A DNA stretch of 64,000 nucleotides from Stylophora pistillata (GCF_002571385.2 NW_019218008.1:299131-363130), one strand, 5' to 3'. Shown: positions 577 through 61,484, counted from the first letter of the stretch. Translations and numbers: made by a program. The notes: a model not told the origin generated them from the letters alone.

Positions 577-3500
577 CTGTTTCGCTATTATTTTTACAAA
601 CCACTCCAGCATTAGTCCAATGCGCACTTCTGTATGTGATCAGTTCATAGGTACAGTTTGACAAAGACAGTTCGTTGCCAGTGCATTTCACACTGTCCAT
701 CCAGGTTAACGTGAAGTAACGTGGCGGGTAAAAACATTTATACAGAACTGTCAATACATCTGGGTACCCAAGCTGTCTGCAGGCGACGCGGCCATCTTCT
801 TGATCCCAGCCGAACATCCCAATCTGGCCCCAGATCCCTGCGTATTCCACTTGAACGCACCCAGCGTAAGGTACTGAGGCGTGGGCGAGACGAAGTGGTA
901 AGGGATGAGCTTAAAACAGACAAAGAAGTAAGTCTCATTGCACCAATGTTGATTCGTGCTTTCAATAAAAACTTTAAAGGAATGCATCTGTGCACGATTC
1001 TAAATGCATACTTCACATCCTTACAACTAAGATCTGATCAGAAATTAATAATAATAATAATTTCACAATAATAATTTAATATTTATATTGCGCAAATTAA
1101 CATATTTGGAAATGATCGAATGCGCATCACAACACTTTTCAAGGGAAATTTGCCGGACTGCATCAGCAGTTTACGATCAATGGAAGGAAACTTATTTGAA
1201 GATGTCCCCTCCCTCCCAATTCCCAGTAAACAGGCCAGACCACATCACAGTAACCTCGTGAGTGGGTTCTTTAACGTCCCCTGCCTAACCAAATTAACTA
1301 ATATATAGATGAAAGAGACGGGAACTACGGTTTATTCGTCCTTATCTGAGAAGACTAGAATGTCTATCCATTTCTTGATACTATAGAAAGGTAGCATATT
1401 CTCTTCAGTTATTTTAGGACCTTGAGTGTTGGTTCGACCGGAGCTCGAACCCTCGACCTCCCGCACAACAGTCCGGCGCTCTAACCAATTGGCCTAAGAG
1501 GGAGGTGGTTAACTTCCACAACGACTTGGTCTTCTTTGCAACTGCTCAGTCGAAGGAATTTCGCGCATAGGGGGAGTGTTGGGTGACATTCCAAAGAGCA
1601 ACGGCGAAGGGGACATCACGACCCGGATTTCATAATAGAAAAAAAAAGACACACAAGATCCAAAACAAACTTACTGACTGTCATGTTGAGTTTTTCACAG
1701 ACCACTCCCAAAGCACCTTTAAGCCCCTTTGTACAAGGAGCTCTTTCCCAGTTGTAATCACACTCAGCCAAGCTGCTTTCATTTCCATCACATCTGACAC
1801 TGGTCATCCCATAGCAAGTATTTCCAGGCCCAAAAGCATTATTACATGGGGTGGCAATGGCTTGTGGGTAACCAAGCTGTCTGCATATCACGTGGCCAAC
1901 ATTTATGTTTATACCGTAATCACAGACTCGACCCCAGTTTCCATTGTACTTCACTTCTACTCGGCCAGCATACGATCCTGGGCCATCAGTTAAGTTCACA
2001 GTTATCCTAAACGCTGAATTGCAATAAAAGAAAAAAAGATGAATATTGAAGTATTCATACGAAAATGAATAAAACAATACATAGTTTACTTCATGTGTAG
2101 TTAATTCTTACGTGCTGCCAAAACTAAAAATGATTTTGTAAAGCTAATAATTTGATTATATCAACAAAGTTGAAATGGTAAATTGGCCACCGTTGCGATT
2201 ATAAAAGCTGACGTTTCTAGCGTTAGCCCTTCGTCGGAGCGAATAGAGGAATTGTGGGTTGTGTGTGCTTATAAAGGCAGAAAATGGAGCTACGTGATTG
2301 GTGGGAACATAGCAATGAGAAAAACACGAATAAATTAGTGGAATGAAAAGCGTTCGTTGATACCCAGAGGAGAGTGATCACTTTCCACGTGATGTTCAGT
2401 AGCCAATCAGGTCACACCTAAACATCTTTTCACTTTTTGCGATTTGGAGAGAGGTATATACTAAAAGTTGAGGAATTTCGATTGGAAGACTTTACTTTGA
2501 CAGAAATAATTTTATACAGATTCAAAGATACATAAACGAAGATTGTTCGTGGCGAGAATTTTTTGAAGGTAAGATTTATTTGTGTTGTTTCTCTTCTCTC
2601 AAAGGAGAGGCAGTAAAATCGCCATAACTTGTAAATGTTAAGAGGTGCATTCGGGTTCATTGCAATATTTAGCTTCAGCATATATTCCAGCATCTTTCTC
2701 TGTCAATTTTGGGAGTATTCATCGCGTTTGATAGAAGTTAGAAGCATTTGAACACGAGCAAAATTTGTCCGAAGTTGAACGTTGTGCGTTATGACTAAGT
2801 CGTAGTAGTAGTGGCCGGGTGATCTGAGACTTGCAAAGAGCGCCACACGAAAAGATAGAACTATGGCTAAAAGAACTTCATAGAGATGCAAACAAATCGT
2901 CAAACTAGCTAAAATTACAGTATTCAGTTTAAGAAACTATGTTGGAGAAATTTTCAAGAGACAAAAATTCAATAAAAATAACAATATTTGCAGGAATGAG
3001 CAAACGTGGCTGTCAACCTCAGGGAGATACTCCGGGGAAAAAACAGATCTAAAATAAACAGGTGGAGTTCTTCAAGGAAAGTTTTGTTCGCTGAAAAAGA
3101 TGTTAGTAAATGACATTATGCTGCAAAAAATCGACACCAAACGCATTGGTAGTTGTGGCATCCATAAGAGAGCACGGCACCGAGAGCTCCGAACGCGGTG
3201 AAGGTCAGCTCAAATGAAGCGAGATTCTCTAAATCACCCATGATCCTTTCCGAACCGCGATCACCCTCCTCTGGTTGATACCTGTGGGATTTAGACTGCC
3301 GGTTTGAAAGATGAGCTTTTAATTTTTTAAAGAGTTTTACGGCTTTCCGTGCTACCTAAGTGTAAGGAAAGACCGCAGATTGCCATATGTTGTTTAGAAT
3401 GATTAGGTAAATTAAAATGTCTAGCGACTGGTTTCGATGTGTCCTTGTCATTCTCCTCCACGTCGCGAATGTCTTCTCGGAATCGATCACCAATAACGTA

Positions 3501-4182
3501 GCTCCATTTTCTGCCTTTAAAAGCACACACAACCCACAATTCCTCTATTCGCTCCGACGAAGGGCTAACGCTCGAAACGTCAGCTTTTATAATCGTAATG
3601 GTGGCCAATTTACCATTTCAACTTTGTTGATATATTCAAATTATTTCGTTACCCCGACCGACGCAGCCCCAAACAGTTTCTTTAGAAACTATCAGCCTTT
3701 ATTCATTTGCAAAGCTAAGCCGAGGTCACTTCAGATCCAGCTTTAAGGAGCTAATTATGAGAAGATGACACAAGCTTTCAGATTTTTAAATCAAAAACGG
3801 AAAGATCAGTCGCAGAAGTGGCATGCCTTTAAAAGGATATTACACAGAACCACCTAAAGAAGGCAAAGAAAGCATTGGCTTTGCCGCAAAAAAATTAAAA
3901 ATGAACCCTTTACACTCCAACATCAGTATGCATATTCTCCATACCGTTCTTTATACATTTCCTAATGTGCGGAGAAAGAGAATTTTTTTGAACAATCAAG
4001 CTTCTTTACTTGGTAATCATTTCCTTTATTCTTGTGACTTCAACGTTTGATACTGGGATGATATTTATTATAAGTAGAAGCTAGATGTTATTCACTCTTA
4101 AGGACAAAAGACGGAGTCAAACAAAAACATTACCTTGTGTCTCCAAAATTACCATGAAGAAACTGATCCATAAGCTGCACAT
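577..4182 (-). CDS. SRCR-domain (DMBT1-like scavenger receptor cysteine-rich) protein, 5' part; continues beyond the window start
   Basis: Exon 4182-4134 (MCSLWISFFMVILETQ, signal peptide-like, GT donor). Exon 2013-1675 (VNLTDGPGSYAGRVEVKYNGNWGRVCD...VICRQLGY...VRCDGNESSLAEC...GVVC). Exon 909-577 (LRLAHASVPYAGCVQVEYAGIWG...ACRQLGY...WMDSVKCTGNELSLSNC...AGVVC). All introns are GT-AG and phase 1. Confidence 0.9.
1235..1510 (-). mobile_element. tRNA-derived SINE
   Basis: The minus strand has an A/B-box-like head (ttggttagagcgccggactgttgtgcgggaggtcgagggttcgagctcc) followed by the same body as 34366-34760. Confidence 0.8.
2365..3273. mobile_element. Non-autonomous TIR DNA transposon (~909 bp) nested in the Penelope element
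   Basis: TIRs cagaggagagtgatc / gatcaccctcctctg (1 mismatch). Flanking direct repeat gttgatacc at 2356-2364 and 3274-3282. Confidence 0.8.
3548..3586 (+). ncRNA. Minimal type I hammerhead ribozyme motif (Penelope-type), CCGA core variant; second copy on minus at ~2205-2243
   Basis: gct-CCGACGA-a-gggc-taac-gctc-GAAA-cGTC-agc: core, 4-bp stem II, palindromic ACGT stem III and GUC triplet. Confidence 0.7.
3903..4105. repeat. Short interspersed MITE-like repeat (related copies ~8244-8412, ~16181-16385, ~25419-25594)
   Basis: Shared motifs (aacatcagtatgcatattctccatac, cactcttagg, aaacaaattctc) recur in both orientations. Confidence 0.55.
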
Positions 4183-7100: not shown

Positions 7101-8529
7101 TGTTTAGTTTGTGTGTTTGATTAAGCATGCAGCGTTTAGACAAAATTATTGCATCTCTTAGGACTAAACCGAAGCTTGCTACACCCAAACCTTCTGGATT
7201 GTAAGGCACCTTGCAAACTGCGCTAACTACAAATCTTTTTCCATTCAACCTCCAGAAGTAATTCCCAAATCTGTATTATCATAAAATCGTCACTACTTGG
7301 TTTTTTTTTAAATATTTAAATATTCGTTCGACAAGAACATAGCAGATTATCAATATCCAAAAAGCCTTTGCTTATTGTTAAATTTCCCAAGGGTATAAAT
7401 GTTAAGTAACTGAGCTATCTGCAATAAAACTAACTCCATACCCTATTTCGGAGTCTTCCTCGAATCATGAAACTTTCTTGAACCTCGTGATGCGTTCAGC
7501 AATAGGGCAAAATTTTGAAGTCGATCGATAATTACTTGCGCAGCAACATTTTTCACACGGCCAGTAACTTCCTTTGCAGCGAATCTGTTAATATAGCTGT
7601 GGTGCGTCGTTTGAAGATTCCGTCCACTTCGTAAAGTGAAGCGAAGTTCATTAATTTGGCCTCTTCGTCCTAATTACTAAGTGAAGAGGAGAACTGGTGA
7701 CTAGCACATTTAACGATTCCAGTGTTCCTCGTAACTTTGCTAATATCCAGACTAACCAATCGATTTTGGGGGCTTTTTAGATAACCAACCGAAAAACTGG
7801 TAGAAATTATTGAAAAGTTTAAAATTACTTCCGACAAATTTAGATATGGTGCAAAGAAATACCTAGGGAAAAGGTTAAGCTTGTTTATCACAGCTTGTTT
7901 GGCCTTAGCCGGCCAACAGATCCTACATATCACGGGTAATGTTAATTATCAGAGGTCATTTTCAAGTCAATCAGTGTTGGTACACACGTGTTAGGTTTGC
8001 TGTTGATTGTAACCAACCAGAACAATTCTTATTTCTTCTTCTCAATAACGGCTGGGAAATGCCTTCCAAAAAGACTGAATCGCTTCTCAGAATTAACAAT
8101 TTTAAATTCCACCGGTCTTAAACTGAATAATCTTGACGGCTTAAATTGATGAGCATGTTATGCTCAGCCAATCAAGCCTTTTGATGATAGCTTTGTAGTG
8201 CAAACGCAGGAAGAAACTCTAAAACAAGTCAAGAATTTTCAACTTCTAACCCCTAAGAGTGACTATATATATTCAGTATATACAGAAAAAAGGAAACGAT
8301 CACCAGTTTACAAGCTCCTGATTGTTAAACAAATTCTCCTTGTTAGTTCTGTTGGGGACGTTAATTTAACAGTGTGGAGAATATGAATAATTATGCTACG
8401 ATAGAAAGGGTTCGAGGACGTGACTTAAACACTGTTGATAGTTTGAGAGCACAAAATACATGAATAACAAAAAAAAAAGAAAAATTTTTTTTTTTTTCGA
8501 ACTTAAATTTTAAGAATATTATGTGTCGT

Positions 8530-8979
8530 ATGATGTGCGATCCTCGCAGTAGATAGCGCTATTTATGCAATAGCGAAAATCAGACCTGAAAAAAATCAGG
8601 CCTGTACGGGACTCGAACCACTGACCTCTGCGATACTAGTGCAGCGCTCTACCAATTGAGCTAACAAGCCAACTGGGAGCAGGCCGTTAAGTTGATTCGT
8701 AATAAACCCGTGAAAGTGAGGGTTTATTACGAATTCACTTTCACGGGTTTATTACGAATCAACTTAACGGCCTGCTCCCAGTTGGCTTGTTAGCTCAATT
8801 GGTAGAGCGCTGCACTAGTATCGCAGAGGTCAGTGGTTCGAGTCCCGTACAGGCCTGATTTTTTTCAGGTCTGATTTTCGCTATTGCATAAATAGCGCTA
8901 TCTACTGCGAGGATCGGTCATCATACGTATCTAATACCGCAGTTCAAAATATATGAACTTCATATATTCATTGCATCTC
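8530..8979. mobile_element. tRNA-Thr(AGT)-like retroposon inserted as a perfect 182-bp inverted repeat with a 14-bp TSD
   Basis: Arms 8538-8719 and 8735-8916 are exact reverse complements. TSD atattatgtgtcgt at 8516-8529 and 8980-8993. Confidence 0.85.
8784..8856 (+). tRNA. tRNA-Thr(AGT)-like sequence inside a repeat (probably not a functional tRNA); mirror copy on minus at 8598-8670
   Basis: GGCTTGT TA GCTC AATTGGTA GAGC G CTGCA CT-AGT-AT CGCAG AGGTC AGTGG TTCGAGT CCCGT ACAGGCC T. It folds as a cloverleaf with mismatches in the anticodon and T stems and is followed by a T7 tract. Confidence 0.5.
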
Positions 8980-10333
8980 ATATTATGTGTCGTTAATTAT
9001 CATGAACAATAAATGATAATAGAATAATAAGCTTAAGATAATCCTGAAATAACGATTTGGTATTCACTAACCGTACGTGCTAAAGAGTCATAACTATTAA
9101 AGATAAGAAGTCGTGATAAACAATCATTTTCCCTTTCTATGCCTTTATATTTGACTTACTACCGCAGGGGAAGGAAAACACATAATGCATTGAATATATG
9201 TAGAAGGAAAAAGTCAGAAATTCATCATTTCAATTACGATTTATTCATTTACTCATTTTCTTCAACAGAAACGCTAGGTTTTGAAGGTGAAATCGGATCA
9301 AGTAATTTTTACATGACTGTCAGTGTTGCCATTTTCATAGAAATTTCAGAGCTGACTGCTGGGGTCCCTGGGTAGGTTCTCATGTTTATTTTCCCATTTC
9401 ACACGTAACTTGGGCGCAGACTTATCATTTTGTTTTATTATTTTTTCTTTAGCTCAAAACCACAAAAAACGAATGATCTCTCTTCGATTTACTTTAACCT
9501 TTTCTTTAAACTTTTTTCAGTGTAATTGATGATTATTTTAATAGAAAGACATTTACAGTTATGAACAAAACACAAACTTATCAAACTTAAATTCTTCATG
9601 GATCGACGTCGCTTACAAAATAATCCTTGAAGCAGAGCGGAAAAAAGGCTTTAGGTAACTTCTTCGGATTGAACCGAGTAAAGGATATTATTTTCAGGAC
9701 TTTCCCAGTGTAGAATGTACCGCTGAGAAATAGAAACGAAATCGTAATATTGCATGGGCACTGATAATTATGCAATGGCGACTGTGATTATATGAATGTG
9801 ATAATTTAAACAATTGAATATCGTTTGCTGAGAGTACTGAATGCCGAAATCAAATCAAGCTTGTTTGGATGAGATTTTTTTGGGGGGAGATTTTAAGCTG
9901 TTAGGTTACGAAGCAGTTGCCATAATTCTGAATTTCCTAAATGGTAGTCAATATGATATGCAAAATACTTAAGATTTAATGAAACAGCGGAAGGCTTCCG
10001 CAGTAGGAAGTGGATTGAATATCTGAAAACCTTATTTATAAGCTCTCAGTTCAGAAACTCGCTTGAAAATTCCGAGGTTTAACTGTTGGCTTATTTTTCC
10101 AAATGATAATTTTGACTGTTAGTAAGTATGGAGTTAGAGTGTTAACGTGTTCACGGTTACTACTCCGCTAAACCAAATCAACAAAAAACATAATTAAATA
10201 CCATGCATACGGCTGGTTTCGAGAAAGCATGTTAGGAAAAAGGAGAAAGTATACGCGATAGTCTCAAAAGGTGTTCTGTATGTCAGGTAATCAATGATGA
10301 TTTTTGATAAATAAAAACAAGGAAAAATTCATC

Positions 10334-30239: not shown

Positions 30240-31322
30240 TTTTGACGTGAAGAACATCACCAAATCGCGCCGTATAGTTTTACCTATGACTGTTCTGATA
30301 TTTGAAGCGAAGGATTTTACACACTATGAAATTGCATTCTCACCTAAACTGCCTATTCATGGCACCGTATATGAAAGGTGCTACTCAGGTACAGAAAGAA
30401 CGCCATTGGAAGATACCCTTGTCTTGGCAAAGTATGTTTCTTGCTTTTCACATCAATGAAATCCATAACGTAAACTGGAACCAAACAACATACAAATCCG
30501 AGGACAACCACTACTAAATTCTTTGTCACTTTTGCTTCTCCTACATTTGCCCGTAGTCGCTGGGGGTTATTTTTGTGTGAGAAGACACGATTTGATCATG
30601 AAACAGCGCGGAATACTTTGACGCAGCAGACTGTGATAATGGCGAAAGGAGTGGCTATATAAAAAACGTTTCCAAAGACTATAAAAGCTGCGTCGTCACC
30701 TTCGAAGACGATCAAACACATCGCTTTGCCCGGATGAAACTGAAATACGTCGGTTCCAGATTTGAAGAATGAAAGCGCAGATCCAGCGAAAGCCAAACAA
30801 CAAAAAATAGCAATGTAAATCAAATGTATTTTTTCTTCGTAAACAACATGCGATACTTTGCAGGTTTCACGACGCAGAAATATCGACTCACTGCATTTAT
30901 TCCCATGGTAAAAAAGGACACAATTGAAAAAGCGTACACTCCAAAACCCTGAAGGGAGCAAAAGCTTTTGCCAAAAACCCAACGACCGTAAAAAAGACTT
31001 GTGACCGTAAAAAAGACTCGTGACCGTAAAAAAGACTTGTGACCGTAAAAAAGACTTGTGACCGTAAAAAAGACTTGTGACCGTAAAAAAGACTTGTGAC
31101 CGTAAAAGGTGTACAACAGGTGGAGATCTGAATATCACTTACAGTCAGAGCTATCACAAACATGTTGGGAGGCGTGCGAAGCCTGTGGTTTTTACACACG
31201 GCGAAACAAATGAGAAGATTGGCGAAGAAAGCCAAAACATTAATGGCAGCAAACAAAACTGTTTCAATTCAAACTAGAGATTTAGCCCGGGTAGCAAATT
31301 CGAAAAAAGGGTTTTTCATCAT
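30240..31322 (-). pseudogene. Melatonin-receptor-like class A GPCR pseudogene
   Basis: Paralogous to 35768-36769 (RLRTPPNMFVIAL, AVSRYFCVVKP, FQFHPGKAMCL). It has an early W-to-TGA stop, a VNTR insertion, further frameshifts and a TGA after RAVS. Confidence 0.85.
30984..31107. repeat. 19-bp VNTR x6 inside the GPCR pseudogene
   Basis: gaccgtaaaaaagacttgt at 30984, 31003, 31022, 31041, 31060 and 31079. Confidence 0.95.
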
Positions 31323-31774
31323 AGCTTTCGGCTACCGGAACAAAAAGCGGGAAAACTTTGAAGCAAGATTCATTAACAAAATTTTCTTTACTATTGAGCG
31401 GAGGTAATTGGCGTCACTTGTTTTAAAACAAAATGCAAATCTTTTGTGTTTTTCCTCCTGAAAAATTAATACTCGTCAAAGTTCACGCCTTCAAAAATGA
31501 AAAATTTTCACTATTTTCGAGAGAAATACTTTAGCCTCCTGGAAAACAATCAGAAGATATTGGTAACTGAATTTGCTGGTTTTGATCGATCAACGAAATG
31601 TAATATTAGTATTCTGACAGGTTTGAAAGTCAGGAAATTGATTCACTTCGGAGAGAAAATTAAATACACTTTGGGGTAAAAGATTACGTTAATTTTTAAG
31701 TGACAGCATATACCATTTTGTCAACTATTTCCGTACTTGGCACTCTATAACCAGTTAAGATCTTTAGCTTTAAC

Positions 31775-31958
31775 AGGATAATTTGGTTTTATCAACTGAG
31801 TTGATGTAAATTGGCCCCTGAAAAGAGTTTGAAAAGCTTTCTATTTGCGGTGGCCGATTTATATTATTAACTCAGCCGATAAAACCAAATTATCTTGTAG
31901 ATACCCCCACCGATGTAGCACTACAGTTTCTTTAGAAACTTACCCCATTTATTCATTT
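31775..31958 (+). mobile_element. Decayed Penelope-like terminal repeat fragment
   Basis: Similar to 3595-3705 (gcggtggccgattt...ccaccgatgtagcactacagtttctttagaaacttacccc). Confidence 0.55.
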
Positions 31959-32487
31959 TTAGTTTTAACACCTTTATAAGCCATAAGCTGTAAGGAGCAA
32001 CAAACCAGCGCTAAAATGTCCTCTATGAACTTACAATTTGACGAGCGTAGTGCAAATTGTTACTTTTAATTTGCGATACAAAGGGGACATACGCGAGCGT
32101 TAAATGAAATACTCGTGTGTGAAACGCTACTCTCGAGCGTGACGTTAGATACTCGTAACATTCGAGCTCAAAGGAGCGAGATACACGAGTGCAGTATCAT
32201 GAAGAGCGGCTTTCATGTCAACATATCTTGCGGTATCAAAATGCAGGACTCTCACAACACTAGATTGAAGTGGCACGACGATATGATAGCTTTGACACCC
32301 AGACTGTATGATAAGAATTACTAGGGATCTAAAGGTAAAAGGTAAAGTATTCAGGGCAGGTGGCATACGCTCGCTCTTAACCGGCTAAATTTCTAAGAGC
32401 ACGTTTAGTCGACAAGGATGAGAGGGGGTTGGTGAGAGGCTTATTAAGTCAAGGTGGGGCATGGAGCTCATTTGAAAAAGGTAGTAT

Positions 32488-33250
32488 TTAACAATTATTC
32501 GCCGAAGGCGAGGTGAATATCGTCGAATAATCCCCGAGACGAAGTCGAGGGGATTATTCGAAAATATACACCGAACCTGAGGCGAATAATTGTTTTAGTA
32601 TAATTTCCGAGCTGAACAACAGAGATATTTCTAAAATTATAACATTTTAGTAACATTTATTAACATTTTATTTTAACATTTTATATAAACCGCGTGGAGC
32701 GGTTCATATAGCGTCATATAAGGAACCGTTCGACCAATCAATTAAGATATTTGCCTTTACTTAAGCTCCCCTTCCTTTCCTATTCACGTGTTCATTTGGT
32801 ATATACTATACACCTCCTGGAGCAAGCAAACTGAAACAAGATCGCGCGTCAAGGGTTTTAAATTTCCAACCATTTTCAATACTTATAGAAATAAACTCAT
32901 GTTTATTAAAAATTATTCGCCTCAGGTTCGGTGAATATCGTCGGATTTTTCGACAATATTCACCGAACCTGAGGCGAATAATTGTTTTAGTATAATTTCC
33001 GAGCTGAACAACAGAGATATTTCTAAAATCATAACATTTTAGTAACATTTATTAACATTTTATTTTAACATTTTATATAAACCGCGTGGAGCGGTTCATA
33101 TAGCGTCATATAAGGAACCGTTCGACCAATCAGATTGCTGGAAACTCTTTGCTCAGCTCTGAAATTATACAAATTGCTATTACGAATTTTATTAACCGGA
33201 AAAGCGATGTCAGCCTTTAGATTGGAAATGTTTAAAATATCGGGAAAAAA
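32488..33250 (+). mobile_element. Hairpin-headed element with an internal tandem duplication of its head (32570-32741 = ~32961-33132); may extend to ~34340
   Basis: ~108-nt palindrome 32489-32596 centred on gac-gaa-gtc. A rebuilt palindrome sits at 32910-32986, followed by a near-identical body. Confidence 0.7.
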
Positions 33251-34365
33251 TTGGGTTGCACAGCAGGAGAGTGATCCAATCTCTGTCACAGGTGCATGCA
33301 ACAAAGTTCCACGCCGTTTTTTGCGATCGATCGTTGAGTGCAGCGATTGAAAAGTTTTGATTAGCACTTTTTTCTGTTTTCTAATTTTAAAACTATAACA
33401 AAGTAAATGGCTGTGATTGATATGGCCAGGAGAGACTAAAAGATGCTCCTCGAAAAAAAATGCAAAAAAATCAACAGGAATTGGTGGCTTACTAGTTAAA
33501 GCTTTGAGGTTGGGGCCGAGTTTTTTACACGTGATTCTTTGATTATGTATGCCGTGACACTTCATTAGATTCACGGATAGAACTTCGTTGTATTGTTGTT
33601 TCAGTTTACGATCCATAGATTGATTGATTGTGAGATTGATCGTGATTTTCATCGTTGAGTGTGGTTCGTGGTCAATTGCCTTTCAAGAATAAAGATTTGC
33701 GCAAACAGTCGACTTTGGTTTGTTATCTCGATCTCTAAAATAGTCCCCAAACACCTTGTTAACCGCGTTTTGGAGCGACGCCCCCTTGAACTTGAGCATT
33801 TAGATTTTTGGTGGCCGCAAACGTTACAGCCGGTGTTGCTGTCAATTTGTGCCTGGTTTCTTAAAAATGGTTTATGCCTCTTGCTCGCTTGCCAATAACC
33901 AAGTGTTGTACACTGTGCATTGCGAGGGTTGAGCTCGGTTTGCTGGGAGAATTAAACGGACAACCTTTATCAAAATACGATTTATGTCTTAACTTCCGAG
34001 CTAAGGTAAAGCGATCGCAGAGATAACTCGTGGGTAGCTTGTATTATCCTGAATCAAGTCGCCCAATCTGAGCTAAGGTAATTAAAATGGAGGCGGTGCT
34101 GCGAATGTTTTCCAGATCGTACTGGATTGTTTTATCCACTCTACGCCGCCCTGTCCGAGAAATACTACTAAAAAACAGACACACAAGTCTAAGTGAAGCC
34201 TTCCAAGTGATGTTTGGATCGCTACTCCTGCAATCTAAGTACTAACGAAAGACTAATCTTAGACGTCTACACGTGGTTTTCGCCCGCCGCCACGTGATTA
34301 GTTTGCATGATCTGTTGTAGCGATTAACTGTACTAACTATGGCTAAAATCAAGTAAATACAGTCT

Positions 34366-34760
34366 ACCACCGCCTCCCGGTTAGCTCAATTGGTAGAGCG
34401 CCGGACTATTGTGCGGGAGGTCGTGAGTTCAAATCCGGCCGGACCAACACTCAGGCTCTTTGAATAACCGAGAAGAAAGTGCTGCCTTTGTAATAATATC
34501 TGCAAATGGTTAGACTTTCTAGTCTTCTCGGATAGGGACGATAAATGGAGGTGCCGTCTCACAAACCCTTGTGTGTGATAAAAAAATTTGTGGGACGTTA
34601 AAGAATCCACACAGTGTTCGAAAAGAGTAGGGCACGTAGTGCCCGGTGTTGTGGTCTATCTTTGTGTAGTGTCTATCAAATTGATGGGGGGTACTGCGCC
34701 TTTGAATATTGTATAGAAAGGGCCCAATATAAATAAGGAATTCCTTCATTCATTCATTCA
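34366..34760 (+). mobile_element. Near full-length tRNA-derived SINE
   Basis: A box tagctcaattgg, B box gttcaaatcc, body shared with 100-292 and 1235-1510, and a (ttca)n tail. Confidence 0.85.
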
Positions 34761-35767
34761 CTTAACTGAACGTGAAATGGACACCTCTCTTGAAATCCTT
34801 CTGAAATGGGATAAGGAGGATTCCTTCTAAGAGCCATTCAGTTTTCAGTAACATATTTGCCCTGCACTGAAGCTTAACTAAAAGCGGCCCGAAATCACAT
34901 GTTCACAAGTATCTGCCATTGTAAGTCCCGGATGTAACCTATCTGGGATAATGATAAAACGCTGTGCAAGCTGCATAAAATAATATACTCCCTTTGGAAA
35001 TAAATGTCATTTCAAGAATGTTATCAAATCCGTATTGATTCCCTGGCAAGTCGAAAGTAGCAGCTTTTAGTCGATTTCATGAATTTTGACAGTTTTCCCT
35101 TCATAACAACGACTGAAATTGCAAATTAGAGTAGGTGGCTCTCACTTAATTCAATTTTTGCTTCTTGAGCCTTTATCTGTTTTGAAAATTTAAAAACGCC
35201 CTCTTCAAACTGTCATCATCGGTTTTGTGAGATTAATGTAATTGGGTGACCGTTAAGACTCTATAACAGGAAAGTGCACAACTTGATCTCAAATATAAAT
35301 TATAGAAAACAAATGCACGCTTTGCCATAATTCCCCTACAATCAATTAACCTGGAGGTGATAATGAATTGATATGTAGATTAACAAGACTTGAAAAAAAT
35401 AAATGATGTCATTTGAAAAATTCCTGACAAGTTGCAAATTGACAAATTTCACTTGGTTTGTTCAAGTTTATTGAAATATCACTATTTAAGCTGTCACTCA
35501 TTACCAATATTTGCCAACCTCCACTTTTCAGTGCTGCTATCCTCTGATGCCCACAAAGGTTAGGTTTAACAAAAACAAAAATAAAGAACAAAAAGTGGGC
35601 AGCTGACATTTTATGAAGGATATCGGCTTTGATACGTGATAATCATGATAAAGTCGTTAATGCATCAAATCCAGAATTTTGCAATCTTCCGTTGGCGATC
35701 GTGAATTATATTCGATGCTTCTTCATCCTGCGACTCCAGAACGGAAAGAGAGGATCTGAAAAACGTC

Positions 35768-36769
35768 ATGAAGGAATCACACTCTCTCGAGCTCGCATCA
35801 AGGTCCGAAATCTCAATTTGGACCGAGACAGTTTTGTTTGCCATAATTAACGTTTTGGTTTTCTTTGGCAACCTTCTTACTTGCTACATCGTGTACAGAA
35901 ACCACAGGCTCCGCACAATTCCCAACATGTTCGTGATAGCATTGGCTGTAAGTGATATTCTGATTTCCATCTGCTGTATGCCATTTACAGTTGTAACTCT
36001 TTTCTACGGTCAGTGGATCTTTGGTGAAACTTTTTGTCGAGTTAATGGTTTCGAGGTGTTCACGTTTGCAGTGGCTTCAATTTATTGCATGGGAGTCATT
36101 GCAATCAGCCGATATTTCTGCGTTGTAAAACCAGAAAGGTACTTGGTGTTGTTTAGGAAGGAGAAAATTTCTTTTTACATTGCTTTTGCGTGGTTGGCAG
36201 CTCTCGTTGGATCTGTACCTCCCATTTTCTTTGAGAAAGGCGGATTTGAATTCAAGCCGGGAAAAGGGATGTGTTTGTACACATTCGAAAGCGACATTGG
36301 TTATACATTGTTTGTCGGATTTGTTTGTATCACAGCCCCCTTAACACTTATAACCATCAGCTATGTAATGGTGTTCCGCGCAGTTTCAAGATCAAATCGA
36401 GTTTTCTCGGAAGAAAGCGATTTTCCTCGTTTACGAGCGAATATTGAGGAAGCCAAAGTGAGCAAGACTTTAGTTGCAGTTCTAGTTGGTTTTGTGTCTT
36501 GTTGGATGCCAATTTATGTCATCGACACCACTGATGCCTTGCGCGGGAACAACGCTTTCCCGCGAGAAGTGTACATTTCTTACGCGTTCTTGCTTTACTT
36601 GAGTAGCACCATAAACCCGGTTATTTACGGCGTCATGAATAAGGAATTGAGGCGAGAATACAAGGATATCTTTAGCAAGATTCTTCGTTGCCAGCACCAT
36701 AATATTATAGAGACTGAGACTAATCCTGAAGTAAGGTTTACCGCTCGACTGGAAGGCAGGTCTACTTGA
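35768..36769 (+). CDS. Intact intronless class A GPCR, melatonin-receptor-like cnidarian family (333 aa)
   Basis: Seven hydrophobic segments; GN (TM1), LAVSD (TM2), SRY in place of DRY, CWMP (TM6), NPVIY (TM7). Confidence 0.92.
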   Translation: MKESHSLELASRSEISIWTETVLFAIINVLVFFGNLLTCYIVYRNHRLRTIPNMFVIALAVSDILISICCMPFTVVTLFYGQWIFGETFCRVNGFEVFTFAVASIYCMGVIAISRYFCVVKPERYLVLFRKEKISFYIAFAWLAALVGSVPPIFFEKGGFEFKPGKGMCLYTFESDIGYTLFVGFVCITAPLTLITISYVMVFRAVSRSNRVFSEESDFPRLRANIEEAKVSKTLVAVLVGFVSCWMPIYVIDTTDALRGNNAFPREVYISYAFLLYLSSTINPVIYGVMNKELRREYKDIFSKILRCQHHNIIETETNPEVRFTARLEGRST

Positions 36770-49041: not shown

Positions 49042-49953
49042 GTGAAAAATAACAATCATGATATCACATATTTCTAATTAATGTATTCGATTTTAATTCT
49101 CACAGTTAAGTTATTTAGATATCATTTTTAGTTTACCTCCATTTTAGTATTGATTCGTTACGCTATGTGATTGGTCAAGAGAATTCGCGCCAAATTCTAA
49201 ACCAATCAGATGCAAACTAAAACCAGTCGTGACTTGGTCACCCTTGTTTTCTCGTGCTGGGTGATTCTCTTTGTTATTATTGGTCCTTACTATTTCCTTG
49301 GCTTGATTATATCACTCCGAATTAAAAACCGCGCTTAAGTTCTAAAACTCTGCTGTGATGTTATGAGCATATATCGATGGCTGGCATTATATTCATCAAG
49401 TGTGTGTTCAAGTCAGACAGGTTATTTCTTATTGCCTAAGATACTTGTGAGTAACATCTTTTAAATCTTTCAACTACGTCAATAGAACTGATCTTAAAAA
49501 ATGCACAAAAATACCGATTTCTCGACCCTCCCTTTTCGGAAACACTCGAGAATTCGCTTCCGAAAAATTTATAAATTTACACCCAATTCTTAGCGTTCAG
49601 TCACTTTGTTGGATTGTTTATGTATACTGAGCTCGTACATGACCACTAGCGTTGAACCTTCAAAACACATCGCTTTGACAATGAGCACGTAGATTGAATG
49701 CCAATAGGGTTAGGGACTACTTCGTATCGTATCAGTAAATGTTTGCACTCGTCGGGTGATGACCTTGACATGTTATACTGCATTCGGCTCCAAGGTTTCC
49801 AGCACCTTTTAAATTTTCAGTGTCAAGATGTGTAAGTCCTAAGTTTCTGATTTTATCAGGAACAAACTCGGACGAAATATGAAAAACATTCCATTTACTA
49901 CAACATTTCTTAAGCTAATTCAGTGAGGCGTTGCCGTTCTCGCTGTCAACTCA

Positions 49954-50799
49954 TTATTGGGAGCCGAAAATGTTCCTAATAATAACCTTTTACTCTCGCC
50001 TGAACTTCTTATCTGTGGCACAATAGATAAAGGGGTTTCTGGTGCTACTCAGATAAACTAAGAAGCTGTAAGTTAAGTACACTTGTCGTGGTAGTTTGGG
50101 TTCTCCACGTACCATGTCGATGTTCTTGACGACGAAGACAGGAAGCCAACAGCATGCAAAGCCGACCACAACTACCACCAAACGTTTCGTCACTTTGCCT
50201 TCTTCCACATTCACCCGAAGGAGTTGCAGATTATTTTCCAACGAGAAAACACAATTTGATCTTGGCACAGTGCGAAACACTTAAACATAGCAGATCTTGA
50301 TGATGATCAAGTGAGTTTTGATGATACAGCAAAGGATTGAGACAGAGTAAGCAATGTTACTTTCAAATTTGTACAGACATATTGCTTTTCCAGGCTGGAA
50401 TTCAATGCTGTCGTTTTTGAAGAGTAATCACGATGGGCACAGATGCAGCCAGAGCCAATACTTTTCTTGATTGACAACACAGAAATACCGGCTGACTGCA
50501 ATTGCTGCCATAGTTCCAAGACTGCCCATCCCAAATGTAGATGTATCAACTGCTTGAAAGCGACAGACCGTTTCACCAAAGATCCAGCTGCCGTGGAAAA
50601 TACTTGCCACTGTAAAAGGCATACAGCAGGTACACATCAGAATATCGCTGACAACCAGTGCTATTACGAACATGTTGGGAATTGTTCGCAGCCTTCGCTT
50701 TCGGTAAACGGCGTAACAAGCAAACAAAACTGTTTCAGTCCTAACTAAGACTTCAGATCTAATAGTAAGCTCATGGGAAAGTGTCTTGGACACCGTCAT
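49954..50799 (-). pseudogene. GPCR paralog A1 (pseudogene)
   Basis: TM1 deletion, frameshifting deletion after NQEKY, further indels and a premature stop after KFRRE. Confidence 0.88.
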
Positions 50800-52541
50800 T
50801 CTTGACAAATGAGTGAAGAAAACTGTGACTGTAACCGCTGTGGAGATTCTGAGGTAATGGTTGATGAAAGGGTGTTAGGAATATTTTTCTTGGTAATTTT
50901 GACGACCTCATTATCTGTCTTTATCATTATTCACCCAATATAGCCCGGTTTTATTGTCCCAGCAACGGTTTCCAATTATTATTATTTACGTAACAGGATT
51001 TCTTTTTGAATATCTATATCAGTTGCTGGCATTTCTCTGTTTTTTTAAACATTTTTTTGTTTTGTTTGACTTACTGTGCCCTTCAATGACTTCCCCTAGG
51101 CTCGGAGCCAAACTAGAGATGAACGAAATGAACAACTAAATACAGATATAATTAAAATAGAGTAAATTTGTTCAATCGCGGCTCAGGGAAAGACTGTTTG
51201 AGTTTCGATGTGGTGTCCATCATCATTATCCACTTTTAGGAGCAATTGTTGTTTTAAGTAAGAAATCACCGTACCGAAACCTGCTCAATATTCATTCAAA
51301 TGTTCAACATTTCAACATAGAGTTACTTCCTCCTAACAAACCTTATTTGTGATTACATGACAGAACCATCTAGGATGTTGAGGTGACTTTTTCGCGTCAA
51401 TATTTAGAAACAAGATGTTTAGACAACATCTGCTACAGTTTTGAGTTAACTTTTTAAGCAGTTTTCAAGCAGAAACGTGAGTTGGTGCAAACATCAAATT
51501 TCACTGACACTTGACTTCCGCGGTCTTATANGATGTAGATGTAACAGCAGCTTTTAAGAGCCTCTTAAAGTTCTTAAGCTACATCACAAGGTAACTTGGC
51601 TTACCATGCATTTCTTTGAAAGTACGTACAAAGTAAATTTTAGAAACATCCTTTTTTTAGCTAAAATCGGTCTATTAACTGTAACTCTTGTTAGGAAAAA
51701 CCTACATTATTTAAAGATCAACTTTTCCTTAGAAATAAGCAGTTTTGTTCGTTCTATAAAAGTTAGAAATTTAAACAGTTTTTAAAAAGCGGCAATTTCC
51801 TTGGCCTATTAAAGAAGAATACATTTTGTCAACTATTAAGAGTCAAGCAGCTGGTTATGTCAGAAAAATAATTTACCTATAACATTTTCACCATTTGATT
51901 TATTTAAAAAATTATTTTAAGTAGCAACAAATGATAGAAAAGTAAACATTTCTAGACAATTGCCTCTGAAGCCGCATAAAAAAAAGGTATCTTGTTGCCA
52001 TGGCTACTGAGTAAAACATGTTGTAAATTCTAAAGACCATGAAGGATCTGAATGTCCACGATAAAACATTGTCATGGCAACAAATCTACCACTAATTTCT
52101 GAAACACTCGAGAATTCGCTTTCGCAAAATTTGTAAATCTACACCCAATTCTAGTCAACATGTACTTCATGATACAACAGTGTTCAGTCACTTTGTTGGA
52201 TTTCTTACGTATACTGAGCTCGTACATGACCACTAGCTTTGAACCTTCAAAACACATCGCTCTGACAATGAGCACGTAGATTGAATGCCAGTAGGGTTAG
52301 GGACTACTTCGTATCATATCAGTAAATGTTTGCACTCGTCGGGTGATGATGACCTTGACATGTTACCGCATTCGGCTCCAAGGTTTCGAGCACCTTTTAA
52401 ATTTTCAGTGTCAAGATGTGTAAGTCCTAAGTTTCTGATTTTATCAGGAACAAACTCGAACGAAATATGAAAAACATTCCATTTACTACAACATTTCTTA
52501 AGCTAATTCAGTTAAGCGTTGCCGTTCTCGCCGTCAACTCA

Positions 52542-53422
52542 TTATTGGAAGCCGAAAATCTTCCTAATAATAACCTTGTACTCTCGTCTGAACCTCTTAT
52601 CTGTGGCACAATAGATAAAGGGGTTTCTGGTGCTACTCAGATAAACTAAGAAGCTGTAAGTTAAGTACACTTGTCGTGGTACTTTGGGTTCTCCACGTAC
52701 CATGTCGATGTTATCGACGACGAAGACAGGAAGCCAACAGCATGCAAAGCCGACCACAACTACCACCAAACGTTTCGTCACTCTGGCTTCTTCCACATTC
52801 ACCCGAAGGAGTTGCAGATTATTTTCCAACGAGAAAACACGATTTGATCTTGACACGGAGCGAAACACTTTAACATAGCAGATCTTGATGATGATCAAAG
52901 GAGTTGTGATGAAACAGCAAAGGATTGAGACAGAGTAAGCAATGTTACTTTCAAATTTGTACAGACACATTGCTTTTCCAGGCTGGAATTTAATGCTGCC
53001 GTTTTTGAAGTGTAACATGGGCACAGATGCAGCCAGAGCCAATACTTTTCTTGATTGATAACACAGAAATACCGGCTGACTGCAATTGCTGTCATAGTTC
53101 CAAGACTGCTCATCCCAAATGTAAATGTATCAACTGCTTGAAAACGACAGACCGTTTCACCAAAGATCCAGCTGCCGTGGAAAATACTTGCCACTGTAAA
53201 AGGCATACAGGAGGTACACATCAGAATATTGCTGACAGCCAGTGCTATTACAAACATGTTGGGAATTGTTCGCAGCCCACGCTTTCGGTAAACGGCGTAA
53301 AAAGTGAGAAGAGTTCCGAGGACAGCTGCAACGTTGATAACAGCAAACAAAACTGTTTCAGTCCTAACTAAGACTTCAGATCTAATGGTAAGCTCATGGG
53401 AAAGTGTGTTGGACACCATCAT
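52542..53422 (-). pseudogene. GPCR paralog A2 (frameshifted)
   Basis: TM1-3 lie in ORF 52895-53431 and TM4-7 in ORF 52542-53042, in different frames because of a deletion after INQEKY. Confidence 0.88.
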
Positions 53423-54861
53423 TCTTGACAAATGAGTGAAGAAATCTGTGACTGTAACCGCTGTGGAGATTCTGAGGTAATGGTTGATGAAAGGGTTTTA
53501 GGAATATTTTTCTTGGTAAAGTTAACGAACTCATTATCTGTCTTTATCATTATTGACCCAATATAGCCCGGTTTCATTGTCCCAGCAACGGTTTCCAATT
53601 ATTATTATTTATGGCATTTCTTTGTTTTTTTAAACATTTCTTTTTAGGTTGACTTACTGTGCCCTTCAATGACTTCCCCTAGGCTCGGAGCCAAGCAAGA
53701 GATGAATGAAATGAACAACTAAATACAGATATAATTACAATAGAGTAAATTTGTTCAATCGCGGCTCAGGGAAAGACTATTTGAGTTTCGATGTGGTCTC
53801 CATCATCATTATCCACTTTTAGGGGCAATTGTTGTTTTAAGTAAGAAATCACCGTACCGAAACCCGCTCAATATTCATTCAAATGTTCAACATTTCAACA
53901 TAGAGTTACTTCCTCCCGACAAACCTTATTTGTGATTACATGACAGAAACATCTAGGATGTTGAGGTGACTTTTTCGCGTCAATATTTAGAAACAAGATG
54001 TTTAGACAACATCTGCTACAGTTTTGAGTTAACTTTTTAAGCAGTTTTCAAGCAGAAACGTGAGTTGGTGCAAACATCAAATTTCACTGACACTTGACTT
54101 CCGCGGTCTTATATGCCGATCAAAATAAAATAATGTAAGTTAAACTTTTTTTAATCTTGATCGCATACGACATTTAATAATATTCCACGCATGCTAAACA
54201 AGCTGACCAATAGAAACTTTCCACTCATTTTTTCAGTCACACTGTGTGCACAATATTTGATATGTTTGTGCTCAGTCGATGAACTCTTGTACCACACTGC
54301 GGCACCGCTGTTTTCATCTTTGTTGTCAATTTTTATAACCACTCACTTCTACTAATTGTAACAAAATAAATTTTTGAGTAAGTGAAAATGGGAATGGTTG
54401 GAAATAAAAGAGAAAAACGCAAAGATCACACACATAAAGAATTTGAAATTGAGCTTCAAATATAGTTTTAATGTTGAAATTAATGTACATGTAAGATAGA
54501 ATCGCCGTCACTAAAATAACAATCGTCTACATGTCTTTCTTTGCTGTATAAGAAGTTTGTCTATTTTTGATAATACTCTTTGTCGTTAAAGACGGTCTCT
54601 TTTGATCTGAATCGGCTTTGCTTCTGAAACAAAATTGCAACGAGGAAACACAATGTCGCGAAGAAAACGTAAATATAATTATGACTTTTCCTTTGTTACT
54701 ACGAGTTTTGCAAGTAAGTAAAATAAAAAAATTGCCCTGAGAGCTAGACTTCAGTGTGGGAAAATCTTCGGCTTTAACATTGAACTTGCAAGGTCACTTA
54801 TCGGTCTCATTTTGTTGGGACGCCTGTGAAACTCTTTAAGATTGAGGAAGATGAAAACAAT

Positions 54862-55330
54862 TCAAGCAGCACACTCAGTGCTGTGGCTGCTGTTGTTGTT
54901 GCTGCTATTTTGGCGCCGAAGGTAAGTAATCTTGCGCCAGAGGATCTTGTACTCTCGCCTGAACTGTCTATTCATGATGCCATAAATGAAGGGGTTGATG
55001 GTGCTACTCAGATAGGCCAAGAACGCGTACGTCAGGTAAGCCTGTCGTGGTATCGTGGGTTCTCCGCGCCCGGCGTCCACGTTGTCCATGACAGAGATAG
55101 GAAGCCAACAACATGCGAAGCCAAACAGAACTGCTACTAAAGTTTTCGTCACTTTCGCTTCTTCCACATTCGCACGGAGTTCACAGGGGTTACAGTCTGA
55201 AGAAAAAACGCGATTTGATCTTGAAACTGCACGGAACACTTTGACATAGCAGACTGTGATGATTGTTAAGGGTGTTGCGATGTAAAGACATTCGGTTGTT
55301 ACAGTGTAAGCCATGTTACTTTCAAACGCA
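54862..55330 (-). pseudogene. 5'-truncated copy of GPCR B (TM5-7 only)
   Basis: Nearly identical to 58369-58828 and cut at the duplication junction. Confidence 0.9.
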
Positions 55331-56009
55331 AAAAATAATTTACCTATAACATTTTCACCATTTGATTTATTTAAAAAATTATTTTGAGTAGCAACAAATG
55401 ATAGAAAAGTAAACATTTCTAGACAATTGCCTCTGAAGCCGCAATAAAAAAAAGGTATCTTGTTGCCATGGCTACTGAGTAAAACATGTTGTAAATTCTA
55501 AAGACCATGAAGGATCTGAATGTCCACGATAAAACATTGTCATGGCAACAAATCTGCCACTAATTTCTGAAACATTCGAGAATTCGCTTCCGCAAAATTT
55601 GTAAATCTACATCCAATTCTAGTCAACATGTACTTCATGATACAACAGTGTTCAGTCACTTTGTTGGATTTCTTATGTATACTGAGCTCGTACATGACCA
55701 CTAGCTTTGAACCTTCAAAACACATCGCTCTGACAATGAGCACGTAGATTGAATGCCAGTAGGGTTAGGGACTACTTCGTATCATATCAGTAAATGTTTG
55801 CACTCGTCGGGTGATGATGACCTTGACATGTTACCGCATTCGGCTCCAAGGTTTCGAGCACCTTTTAAATTTTCAGTGTCAAGATGTGTAAGTCCTAAGT
55901 TTCTGATTTTATCAGGAACAAACTCGAACGAAATATGAAAAACATTCCATTTACTACAACATTTCTTAAGCTAATTCAGTTAAGCGTTGCCGTTCTCGCC
56001 GTCAACTCA

Positions 56010-56890
56010 TTATTGGAAGCCGAAAATCTTCCTAATAATAACCTTGTACTCTCGTCTGAACCTCTTATCTGTGGCACAATAGATAAAGGGGTTTCTGGTG
56101 CTACTCAGATAAACTAAGAAGCTGTAAGTTAAGTACACTTGTCGTGGTACTTTGGGTTCTCCACGTACCATGTCGATGTTATCGACGACGAAGACAGGAA
56201 GCCAACAGCATGCAAAGCCGACCACAACTACCACCAAACGTTTCGTCACTCTGGCTTCTTCCACATTCACCCGAAGGAGTTGCAGATTATTTTCCAACGA
56301 GAAAACACGATTTGATCTTGACACGGAGCGAAACACTTTAACATAGCAGATCTTGATGATGATCAAAGGAGTTGTGATGAAACAGCAAAGGATTGAGACA
56401 GAGTAAGCAATGTTACTTTCAAATTTGTACAGACACATTGCTTTTCCAGGCTGGAATTTAATGCTGCCGTTTTTGAAGCGTAACATGGGCACAGATGCAG
56501 CCAGAGCCAATACTTTTCTTGATTGATAACACAGAAATACCGGCTGACTGCAATTGCTGTCATAGTTCCAAGACTGCTCATCCCAAATGTAAATGTATCA
56601 ACTGCTTGAAAACGACAGACCGTTTCACCAAAGATCCAGCTGCCGTGGAAAATACTTGCCACTGTAAAAGGCATACAGGAGGTACACATCAGAATATTGC
56701 TGACAGCCAGTGCTATTACAAACATGTTGGGAATTGTTCGCAGCCCACGCTTTCGGTAAACGGCGTAAAAAGTGAGAGGAGTTCCGATGACAGCTGCAAC
56801 GTTGATAACAGCAAACAAAACTGTTTCAGTCCTAACTAAGACTTCAGATCTAATGGTAAGCTCATGGGAAAGTGTGTTGGACACCATCAT
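56010..56890 (-). pseudogene. GPCR paralog A3 (frameshifted)
   Basis: Same lesion as A2 and differs at only a few positions. Confidence 0.88.
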
Positions 56891-60868: not shown

Positions 60869-60905
<37 letters not shown>

Positions 60906-61093
60906 AACAAATTACTTACGGCTCTGACTCCACTTAGAATTCTAATAAAACTAGAAGTACATTTGTGTCTTTTATTTCATAACTTTTTAATCATTGAAAA
61001 ATTCTACATGTCCATCATCTGTACTTTGATTGCTTCATTTAAACTGACTGTTATATTGGAAAAAAGGGTTGTTTACTAAAGAAATTTTGGTTA

Positions 61094-61484
61094 CAATGAA
61101 ATATATGAAGTTCATATATTTTGAACTGCGGTATTAGATACATATGATGTACGATCCTCGCAATAGATAGCGCTATTTAAGCAACAGCGAAAATCTAATA
61201 CCTATGTCTTTGTTACAAAATCTAATACATATGTATCTGATACAGCAGTTCAAAATATATGAACTCCATATATTTCATTGTATCTGATTTATCACTTTCA
61301 CGGGTTTATTACGAATCAACTTAACGGCATGCTCCCAGTTGGCTTGTTAGCTCAATTGGTAGAGCGCTGCACTAGTATCGCAGAGATCAGTGGTTCGAAT
61401 CCCGTAGAGGCCTGATTTTTTTCAGGTCTGATTTTCGCTATTGCTTAAATAGCGCTATCTACTGCCAATATCGTGCACCATATG
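61094..61484. mobile_element. Second insertion of the tRNA-Thr-like element (permuted unit plus inverted partial copy)
   Basis: tRNA-like part at 61341-61413. TSD taaagaaattttg(g/t)tta at 61077-61093 and 61485-61501. Confidence 0.85.

What the first reader, a model, noticed from the sequence alone, without database searches (positions are those of the whole stretch)
8516..8993. Perfect 182-bp palindrome of a tRNA-Thr-like retroposon with a 14-bp TSD and a templated spacer
Seen: the arms are exact reverse complements. The 15-nt spacer (gggtttattacgaat, 8720-8734) is a copy of arm sequence. The tRNA-like part is internal to the unit, not at its 5' end as in a normal SINE, and there is no simple-repeat tail. 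Established: inverted partial copies at insertion are characteristic of Penelope-like elements. Inference: a very young insertion made by an RT with fold-back or template jumps. If transcribed, it would give long dsRNA from divergent Pol III-type promoters.
Basis: partly seen in the sequence, partly recalled or inferred. Interest (0 to 1): 0.7.

Follow-up and report, generated by a model that had tools for sequence, protein, structure and literature searches.

The report
Penelope-type tRNA-mimic repeat, head-to-head insertion
The palindrome is two back-to-back pieces of a 250-base, tRNA-mimicking repeat present in thousands of copies in a coral-type genome, likely pasted in by the enzymes of a Penelope-like retrotransposon, and RNA from this repeat family shows one-strand A-to-G changes that likely mark it as double-stranded RNA edited by the cell.

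Summary
Observation confirmed: exact 182-bp arms, a 15-nt templated spacer, a perfect 14-bp duplication and two tRNA-like modules. The palindrome is the family's normal insertion form, not a one-off. The unit is a 250-bp tandem monomer with at least 9,407 matches in this genome. Of 127 sampled clusters, 66 are head-to-head and none purely tail-to-tail. All 41 with a 10-16 bp duplication have one end near unit 195 and the other near 246. That is the Penelope-like (PLE) inverted-repeat-plus-tail signature, also seen in this genome's coding PLEs. No partner PLE and no ribozyme were found. Simple fold-back fails for 12 of 31 insertions; priming at both nicks fits better, and this copy's centre was probably closed by snap-back synthesis. 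The proposed dsRNA route is wrong: divergent Pol III transcripts would be identical, not complementary. Family RNA nevertheless shows strand-specific A-to-G changes at 8 sites, consistent with editing of dsRNA. No listed contig spans the centre. The scan already reported this family three times elsewhere in this genome.

The parts
8516..8529 (+). Left copy of the 14-bp target-site duplication; its last 3 nt (CGT) also match unit 191-193 (microhomology)
8527..8719 (-). Left (short-end) arm: unit 1-193 in inverted orientation, equal to the young 'CA' subfamily majority throughout
8598..8670 (-). tRNA-like module of the left arm, facing outward
8635..8640 (-). Self-complementary anticodon-loop hexamer ACTAGT, left copy
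8720..8734 (+). 15-nt templated spacer (unit 11-25); with 8735-8740 it forms a 21-bp hairpin on 8689-8709 with a 10-nt loop (-24.1 kcal/mol as RNA)
8735..8981 (+). Right (long-end) arm: unit 1-247, almost one full monomer
8784..8856 (+). tRNA-like module of the right arm: A box about 8791-8802, B box about 8835-8845, T-stem with 2 mismatches; 47.6 bits against 63-76 for the best-scoring tRNAs of the genome
   Evidence: box names recalled
8814..8819 (+). Self-complementary anticodon-loop hexamer ACTAGT (ACCGGT in older and other-host subfamilies)
8859..8865 (+). T7 run in a hairpin loop right after the tRNA module (Pol III terminator-like)
8917..8918 (+). Dinucleotide GT in the right arm only (left arm CA); the only GT among the 100 listed of 132 pattern matches
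8928..8981 (+). About 54-nt extension ('tail', unit 194-247) present at one end only
8980..8993 (+). Right copy of the 14-bp target-site duplication; its first 2 nt also match unit 246-247

Best explanation
This is one head-to-head insertion of an abundant, non-coding, 250-bp tandem unit that carries a tRNA mimic and is likely mobilised in trans by the reverse transcriptase and GIY-YIG endonuclease of a Penelope-like element. Shown: the anatomy, the family-wide rule of one short end (unit about 195) and one long end (about 246) inside a 10-16 bp duplication, variable inner ends, tandem and permuted copies, and no hammerhead core. Inferred: staggered nicks about a dozen bp apart each primed reverse transcription of tRNA-sense, multimeric or circular RNA, at the long and the short site, using 1-5 nt of microhomology; the two cDNAs were then joined at their 3' ends. 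In this copy both stopped at unit 1, and one end likely snapped back and copied 15 nt of itself before joining, which gives the spacer. The arms are perfect because both come from a very young subfamily. A transcript reading through the centre would form a 193-bp hairpin, and such duplexes are the likely source of the family's strand-specific A-to-G changes.
For: Family size: 3,389 and 9,407 exact pattern matches, reversed-pattern controls 0; 250-bp tandem arrays. Of 127 de-duplicated clusters, 66 are head-to-head, 60 single-orientation, 1 complex, 0 purely tail-to-tail. Of the 66, 56 have both outer ends resolved; 41 have a duplication of 10 bp or more (36 of them 12-14 bp) and all 41 pair a short with a long end; control 0 of 400. 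Passages of PMC8557442 and PMC3846280 describe this for PLEs: partial tandems, an inverted 5'-truncated copy, a 30-40 bp tail at one end, 8-10 bp duplications. Coding GIY-YIG PLEs of this genome show inverted copies with unequal ends and 11-16 bp duplications in 5 of 16 structures examined (L042, L060, L219, L185, L211). Arms within an insertion are closer than the median for arms of other insertions in 40 of 47 cases (2.5% against 5.0%). RNA: A>G at unit 58, 70, 83, 86, 91, 115, 149, 160 in 13-28% of reads of one orientation against 0.4-6.5% of the other, in 4 of 4 runs (2 studies); the four other variant rows checked are symmetric; genomic copies carry G there at 0-3%; 7 of 8 sites have a 5' U against 14 of the other 53 A (p=0.002).
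Against: No coding partner was found: in 70 loci around GIY-YIG hits the unit matched only 4, which look like separate insertions and were not examined further. Fifteen of the 56 resolved head-to-head clusters lack a duplication of 10 bp or more, and 9 of those break the short/long rule. Six of 31 insertions, this one included, have both arms starting within 4 nt of each other, where about 1 is expected (counted); independent priming does not predict that. The orientation of the template RNA is inferred from fixed and variable ends; PMC3846280 argues for an antisense template and self-priming. No listed contig spans the centre, and many relatives have N at their centres, so assembly may have evened out arm bases. 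The editing signal is for the family, not this locus; DNA and RNA are from different samples; only differences of 10% or more were listed, so T>C on the other strand could be hidden.
Confidence: 0.75

Rival explanations
1. Same family and enzyme, but this copy arose by pure fold-back: one cDNA (unit 247 to 1) jumped onto itself, copied back to unit 193 and was resolved by the endonuclease, leaving the tail on one side.
For: The short arm is nested in the long arm and both start at unit 1; 16 of 31 insertions have the short arm inside the long arm and 6 of 31 start symmetrically; the spacer is hairpin-templated; self-priming is proposed for PLEs in PMC3846280 (passage).
Against: 12 of 31 insertions are not nested either way, so it cannot be the only route. 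The GT at 8917-8918 is in one arm only, so it was not copied across, though it may postdate insertion.
Confidence: 0.3
2. A tRNA-derived SINE moved by a LINE, with an inversion from LINE-type twin priming.
For: A and B boxes are intact and a T run follows; 10-16 bp duplications and 5' truncation are also LINE-type features (recalled).
Against: The tRNA is internal, there is no simple-repeat tail, copies are tandem and permuted, there are two fixed 3' ends, about half of sampled clusters are inverted, and the T7 run would stop Pol III before the 3' part.
Confidence: 0.07
3. An assembly fold-back artefact at a high-copy repeat.
For: No listed contig spans the centre or the left junction; many family inversions have N at the centre.
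Against: A mirror artefact would not give a 14-bp duplication, unequal ends that obey a family-wide rule, a templated spacer or a variant in one arm only; the right junction appears in contigs of 3 samples; a second copy at 61077-61497 has the same plan.
Confidence: 0.04
4. A MITE or other DNA transposon whose terminal inverted repeats are the arms.
For: Long inverted arms inside a duplication.
Against: Arm lengths vary from about 40 to over 1,300 bp, ends are unequal, 60 of 127 clusters are single-orientation, and tandem multimers are common.
Confidence: 0.02

Closest known systems
Endonuclease-bearing Penelope-like elements (Penelope/Poseidon, Neptune, Hydra, Naiad, Chlamys) and their non-autonomous forms such as MRC1 (PMC8557442, PMC3846280; passages read)
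   Same: Partial tandems, head-to-head inverted 5'-truncated copy, tail at one end only, short duplication, no poly(A); MRC1-type elements give multicopy head-to-tail insertions.
   Different: No ORF; no 3' similarity found to any PLE sampled here; tail about 51-54 nt against 30-40 nt reported (about 47-95 nt in this genome's PLEs); an internal tRNA mimic instead of a hammerhead.
Animal non-LTR retrozymes (PMC7229834, passages; bioRxiv 10.64898/2026.07.22.740005, abstract to methods)
   Same: Non-coding 170-400 nt tandem monomers in corals, low GC, larger duplications, proposed PLE dependence; some need a palindromic loop and dimers to be processed.
   Different: Defined by a type I hammerhead and circular RNA. 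No CUGAnGA core on either strand here, no Rfam ribozyme, circles untested.
tRNA-derived SINEs (SINE2; definition recalled)
   Same: tRNA-like A and B boxes, high copy number, target duplications.
   Different: The tRNA is not at the 5' end, there is no LINE-like or simple-repeat tail, and copies are tandem, permuted and inverted.
tRNA intronic circular RNAs (tricRNAs; bioRxiv 10.1101/497545, passages)
   Same: A tandem dimer of the unit folds with a bulge-helix-bulge-like motif closed by a C-G pair in the anticodon helix.
   Different: The 'intron' would be a whole monomer, the predicted central helix is 6 bp and fully paired, and the D and T arms are not formed in the minimum-energy fold; no processing has been shown.

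Membership tests
Non-autonomous Penelope-like element | Partial tandem (pseudo-LTR-like) arrangement with variable 5' truncation | tested here: met
   Arrays of 1 to about 6 units; 134 inner ends spread over the whole unit
Non-autonomous Penelope-like element | Inverted 5'-truncated copy, head-to-head | tested here: met
   66 head-to-head and 0 purely tail-to-tail of 127 clusters
Non-autonomous Penelope-like element | Tail extension at one end only, with a short target duplication | tested here: met
   41 of 41 insertions with a duplication of 10 bp or more have one short and one long end
Non-autonomous Penelope-like element | 3' sequence shared with a coding PLE partner | tested here: inconclusive
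   No shared end in 70 loci around GIY-YIG hits; only 150 of 1,590 candidates were scored, and N-terminal-endonuclease clades were not searched separately
Non-autonomous Penelope-like element | Mobilisation by PLE RT and endonuclease | not testable with these tools
   Needs a retrotransposition or in vitro priming assay
Non-LTR retrozyme | Non-coding tandem monomer of 170-400 nt | tested here: met
   250-bp monomer
Non-LTR retrozyme | Type I hammerhead ribozyme in each monomer | tested here: not met
   No CTGAnGA core on either strand, while two PLE 3' ends of this genome have one; Rfam to E=10 finds only tRNA
Non-LTR retrozyme | Abundant circular monomer RNA | tested here: inconclusive
   Reads that go back 250 nt fit both circles and tandem read-through; no pile-up of ends; 63-65% of reads run on into unlike sequence
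tRNA-derived SINE | tRNA-derived head at the 5' end | tested here: not met
   tRNA at unit 50-122; only about 6 of 134 inner ends fall at 49-52
tRNA-derived SINE | Single 3' end with an A-rich, simple-repeat or LINE-derived tail | tested here: not met
   Two 3' ends and no simple-repeat tail; similarity to LINE tails was not searched
Functional tRNA-Thr gene | Intact cloverleaf and close similarity to host tRNA-Thr | tested here: not met
   47.6 bits, 2 T-stem mismatches and an A-C pair in the anticodon stem; about 48 of 73 matches to the host tRNA-Thr(AGT)

The most novel reading that the evidence does not exclude
The tRNA mimic does the job that the hammerhead does in retrozymes. Its anticodon loop is kept self-complementary (CUAG here; CCGG in older subfamilies and in another host, at the cost of the near-universal U33), so two tandem copies swap stems into a symmetric bulge-helix-bulge. 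The host tRNA-splicing endonuclease would cut it and RtcB would close a 250-nt circle, the template for a PLE reverse transcriptase: a ribozyme-free retrozyme that hijacks tRNA splicing. For: 95 TA and 2 CG but 0 CA or TG among the first 100 of 9,407 loops; 125 CG copies in this genome; 35 of 37 CCGG in metagenome loci; the unconstrained fold of a dimer gives bulge(3)-helix(6)-bulge(3) at the loops. Against: the host tRNA-Thr(AGT) also has CUAG; CG to TA can follow CpG decay; a wider sample holds 4 CTGG and 2 CCAG among 183; the young subfamily has a damaged T-stem; over-paired helices reduce splicing in 10.1101/497545 (passages); a T7 run follows each tRNA; no circle is shown.
Probability: 0.15. 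Interest if true: 0.8.

Novelty: new variant of a known kind. Interest (0 to 1): 0.45.

Why it matters
How PLEs make tandem and inverted insertions with a one-sided tail is an open question (stated in PMC8557442). A short family with thousands of young copies and a strict two-end rule is a natural dataset for it and a compact 250-nt substrate for an in vitro assay; the non-nested arms already argue against fold-back as the only route. Built-in inverted copies make the family a likely source of dsRNA for A-to-I editing in corals, as inverted Alu pairs are in primates (coral editing in non-coding dsRNA: PMC5850803, passages). It also inflates tRNA-Thr(AGT) counts in annotation. This particular palindrome is an ordinary member of its family.

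Tried and rejected
Ribozyme search: Rfam at gathering threshold (window) and to E=10 (three tandem units) gave only tRNA; a hammerhead-core scan of both strands was empty. Partner search: GIY-YIG family search, 70 loci compared with the unit, no shared 3' end; 11 of 16 inverted PLE structures gave no credible duplication. A fixed RNA 5' end: 134 inner ends show only slight excesses at unit 1-4, 49-52 and 124-126 and none at 87, the predicted splice point. Empty-site allele: none among the joints shown for 4 DNA contig sets, but 460 joints were not shown, X8 lacks cover at 9024-9199, and an A/T tract at 8458-8504 was skipped; inconclusive. Host gene context: no exon recognised near the insertion in stop-to-stop frames, so read-through at this locus is not established. 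Constrained cloverleaf-versus-swapped energies used imperfect D-arm indices and are not used; only the unconstrained fold is cited. Target preference is weak: GT follows the duplication in 14 of 41 and AC precedes it in 10 of 41, against about 5.5% background. Literature searches found no paper describing a tRNA-bearing PLE-dependent coral repeat; Repbase and Dfam could not be searched, and no supplements were opened, so the family may be catalogued there (for example in the supplement of PMC8557442). A look-up of earlier scan findings by sequence returned nothing.

Full report
OBSERVATION. The described features are all present. The arms are exact over 182 bp (8538-8719, 8735-8916) and 99% complementary over 193 bp; the spacer equals 8745-8759; a perfect 14-bp repeat flanks the whole. 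ARAGORN and Rfam call a tRNA-Thr(AGT) in each arm, 47.6 bits. The host looks like a coral: the runs that hold the stretch are labelled organism A, coral metagenome or metagenome.

THE FAMILY. The right arm matches a 250-bp monomer that lies in head-to-tail arrays elsewhere in the genome. Two tight patterns give 3,389 and 9,407 exact matches with 0 for the reversed controls; these are lower bounds. A young subfamily marked by CA at unit 183-184 accounts for nearly all of 132 matches. The left arm equals the majority of that subfamily everywhere, and the right arm differs by one dinucleotide seen once among the 100 matches listed. Perfect arms therefore reflect youth and need no special mechanism. 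Related units at about 75-80% identity, also tandem, occur in metagenome contigs, nearly all from one data set.

INSERTION RULE. I parsed 150 loci (best matches and pattern hits, so biased to young copies containing unit 170-210) into 127 clusters after removing duplicates and clusters at locus edges: 66 head-to-head, 60 single-orientation, 1 complex, 0 purely tail-to-tail. Ten of the 66 have N at an outer end. Of the other 56, 41 have a duplication of 10-16 bp, and all 41 have one end at unit 187-204 and the other at 231-257; of the 15 without one, 6 obey the rule and 9 do not. Mismatched flanks gave 0 of 400. Our copy fits: short end 193, long end 247, each overlapping the duplication by 2-3 nt. 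A second copy in the window (61077-61497, 13-bp duplication) has the same plan. Passages of PMC8557442 and PMC3846280 give this architecture as the PLE hallmark. The genome holds coding GIY-YIG PLEs (90 matches) with hammerhead cores and, in 5 of 16 inverted structures, unequal ends inside 11-16 bp duplications. None of 70 PLE loci shares a 3' end with the unit, so the partner is inferred, not identified.

MECHANISM. Fold-back predicts that one arm is contained in the other. Of 31 insertions with a resolved centre, 16 have the short arm inside the long, 3 the reverse and 12 neither (7 with N at the centre were left out). Two priming events on tandem or circular RNA explain all three classes. 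Arms of one insertion are closer to each other than the median for other insertions in 40 of 47 cases, which fits a shared template but is confounded by age and assembly. Against a pure two-primer model, 6 of 31 insertions have arms starting within 4 nt of each other (counted), this one among them. Here the spacer plus 6 nt pairs back on the left arm as a 21-bp hairpin, which reads as snap-back synthesis before joining; a slip on the RNA template fits equally. All mechanistic steps are inferred.

THE tRNA MODULE. It is a mimic: 47.6 bits against 63-76 for the best-scoring genomic tRNAs, a damaged T-stem, and no closer to Thr than to Lys or Ile among 36 sequences compared (several isotypes were not in that set). 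A T7 run follows it.

RNA. Raw reads of 4 runs (2 studies; 2-6% of each run read) were laid on one permuted monomer. Both orientations are about equally covered, 63-65% of reads run on into unlike sequence and no ends pile up, which fits mostly passive read-through. Eight positions show A>G in 13-28% of reads of one orientation and 0.4-6.5% of the other, while the four other variant rows checked are symmetric. Genomic copies have 0-3% G there, and the DNA contigs list none of these sites at 5%. Seven of eight have a 5' U (p=0.002). This fits A-to-I editing of tRNA-sense RNA if the libraries read the usual strand; coral editing of non-coding dsRNA is reported in PMC5850803 (passages). Limits: family-level, unmatched DNA, 10% listing threshold. 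The sense strand also folds strongly on its own (z=-4.8), so inverted pairs are not the only possible duplex.

READ SUPPORT FOR THE LOCUS. Contigs of X1, X4 and X7 run from 8952-8953 through the right duplication into the flank without a branch, with 0-1 differences. They hold 27-28 element bases, under the 31-base standard. The centre and left junction are not covered by listed pieces. An artefact is unlikely on structural grounds but is not excluded by reads. The insertion seems shared between samples.

NOVEL READING. An earlier, unreviewed note (e1-9589322) proposed that a self-complementary anticodon loop lets tRNA-splicing enzymes cut tandem copies into circles. I tested part of it. The loop centre is TA in 95 and CG in 2 of the first 100 matches, with no CA or TG; older genomic copies and 35 of 37 metagenome copies read CCGG; a dimer folds unconstrained into bulge(3)-helix(6)-bulge(3) at the loops. 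But the host tRNA-Thr(AGT) has CUAG too, CpG decay links the two states, a looser scan of 183 genomic copies found 4 CTGG and 2 CCAG, and tightly paired helices reduce splicing (10.1101/497545, passages). I put it at 0.15.

NOVELTY. It works like a non-autonomous PLE or retrozyme but fails retrozyme membership (no hammerhead) and SINE membership (internal tRNA, two ends). Five paper searches found no description; repeat databases and supplements were not seen. The scan has reported this family three times in the same genome; those notes agree but are not independent support. Papers seen: PMC8557442, PMC3846280, PMC7229834, PMC9977147, PMC5850803 and 10.1101/497545 as passages; 10.64898/2026.07.22.740005 from abstract to part of the methods; others as search listings only. 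Recalled, from no call: A and B box names, Pol III termination at T runs, conservation of U33, the SINE definition, LINE twin priming.

VERDICT. Real, an ordinary member of an unusual family; new variant of a known kind; interest 0.45.

Noticed in passing
window 61077-61497: Second head-to-head insertion of the same family (about 93% to the young unit), 13-bp duplication, same short/long end rule, with a rearranged 32-nt centre containing a 27-bp tandem.
   Followed up: partly
window 2146-3645: Inverted arms (2146-2303 and 3488-3645, 96%) with a frame at 3327-3617(-) that ends in the GIY-YIG endonuclease tail seen in loci L183, L201 and L217: probably a truncated head-to-head PLE insertion.
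   Followed up: no
window 8276-8363: A short, very high-copy repeat about 150 bp left of the insertion (summed contig depth 89,000-313,000 in three runs against about 25-60 in the flanks).
   Followed up: no
window 8466-8497: An A-tract followed by a T-tract forming a small palindrome just left of the target site; contigs break here.
   Followed up: no
window 34380-34408: 29-bp fragment of the tRNA module (unit 55-83).
   Followed up: no
window 30332-36769 and 49534-62354: Cluster of single-exon seven-transmembrane receptor-like genes and broken copies, with a 3.5-kb tandem duplication at 96.7% (51864-58828); family judged by eye from the translations.
   Followed up: no
G000 loci L040-L060, L219, L220: A very young coding PLE family (about 99% identity) with a hammerhead core, two 3' ends about 95 bp apart and 11-bp duplications.
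   Followed up: partly
L180 (G000:C211): Another insertion whose two arms both start at unit 2-4, with a 20-nt spacer; together with this locus it hints at a stop point near unit 1.
   Followed up: partly
G000 tRNA search: 43,618 rough first-look tRNA candidates in a 398-Mb genome, suggesting many more tRNA-like repeats than this family's counted matches.
   Followed up: no
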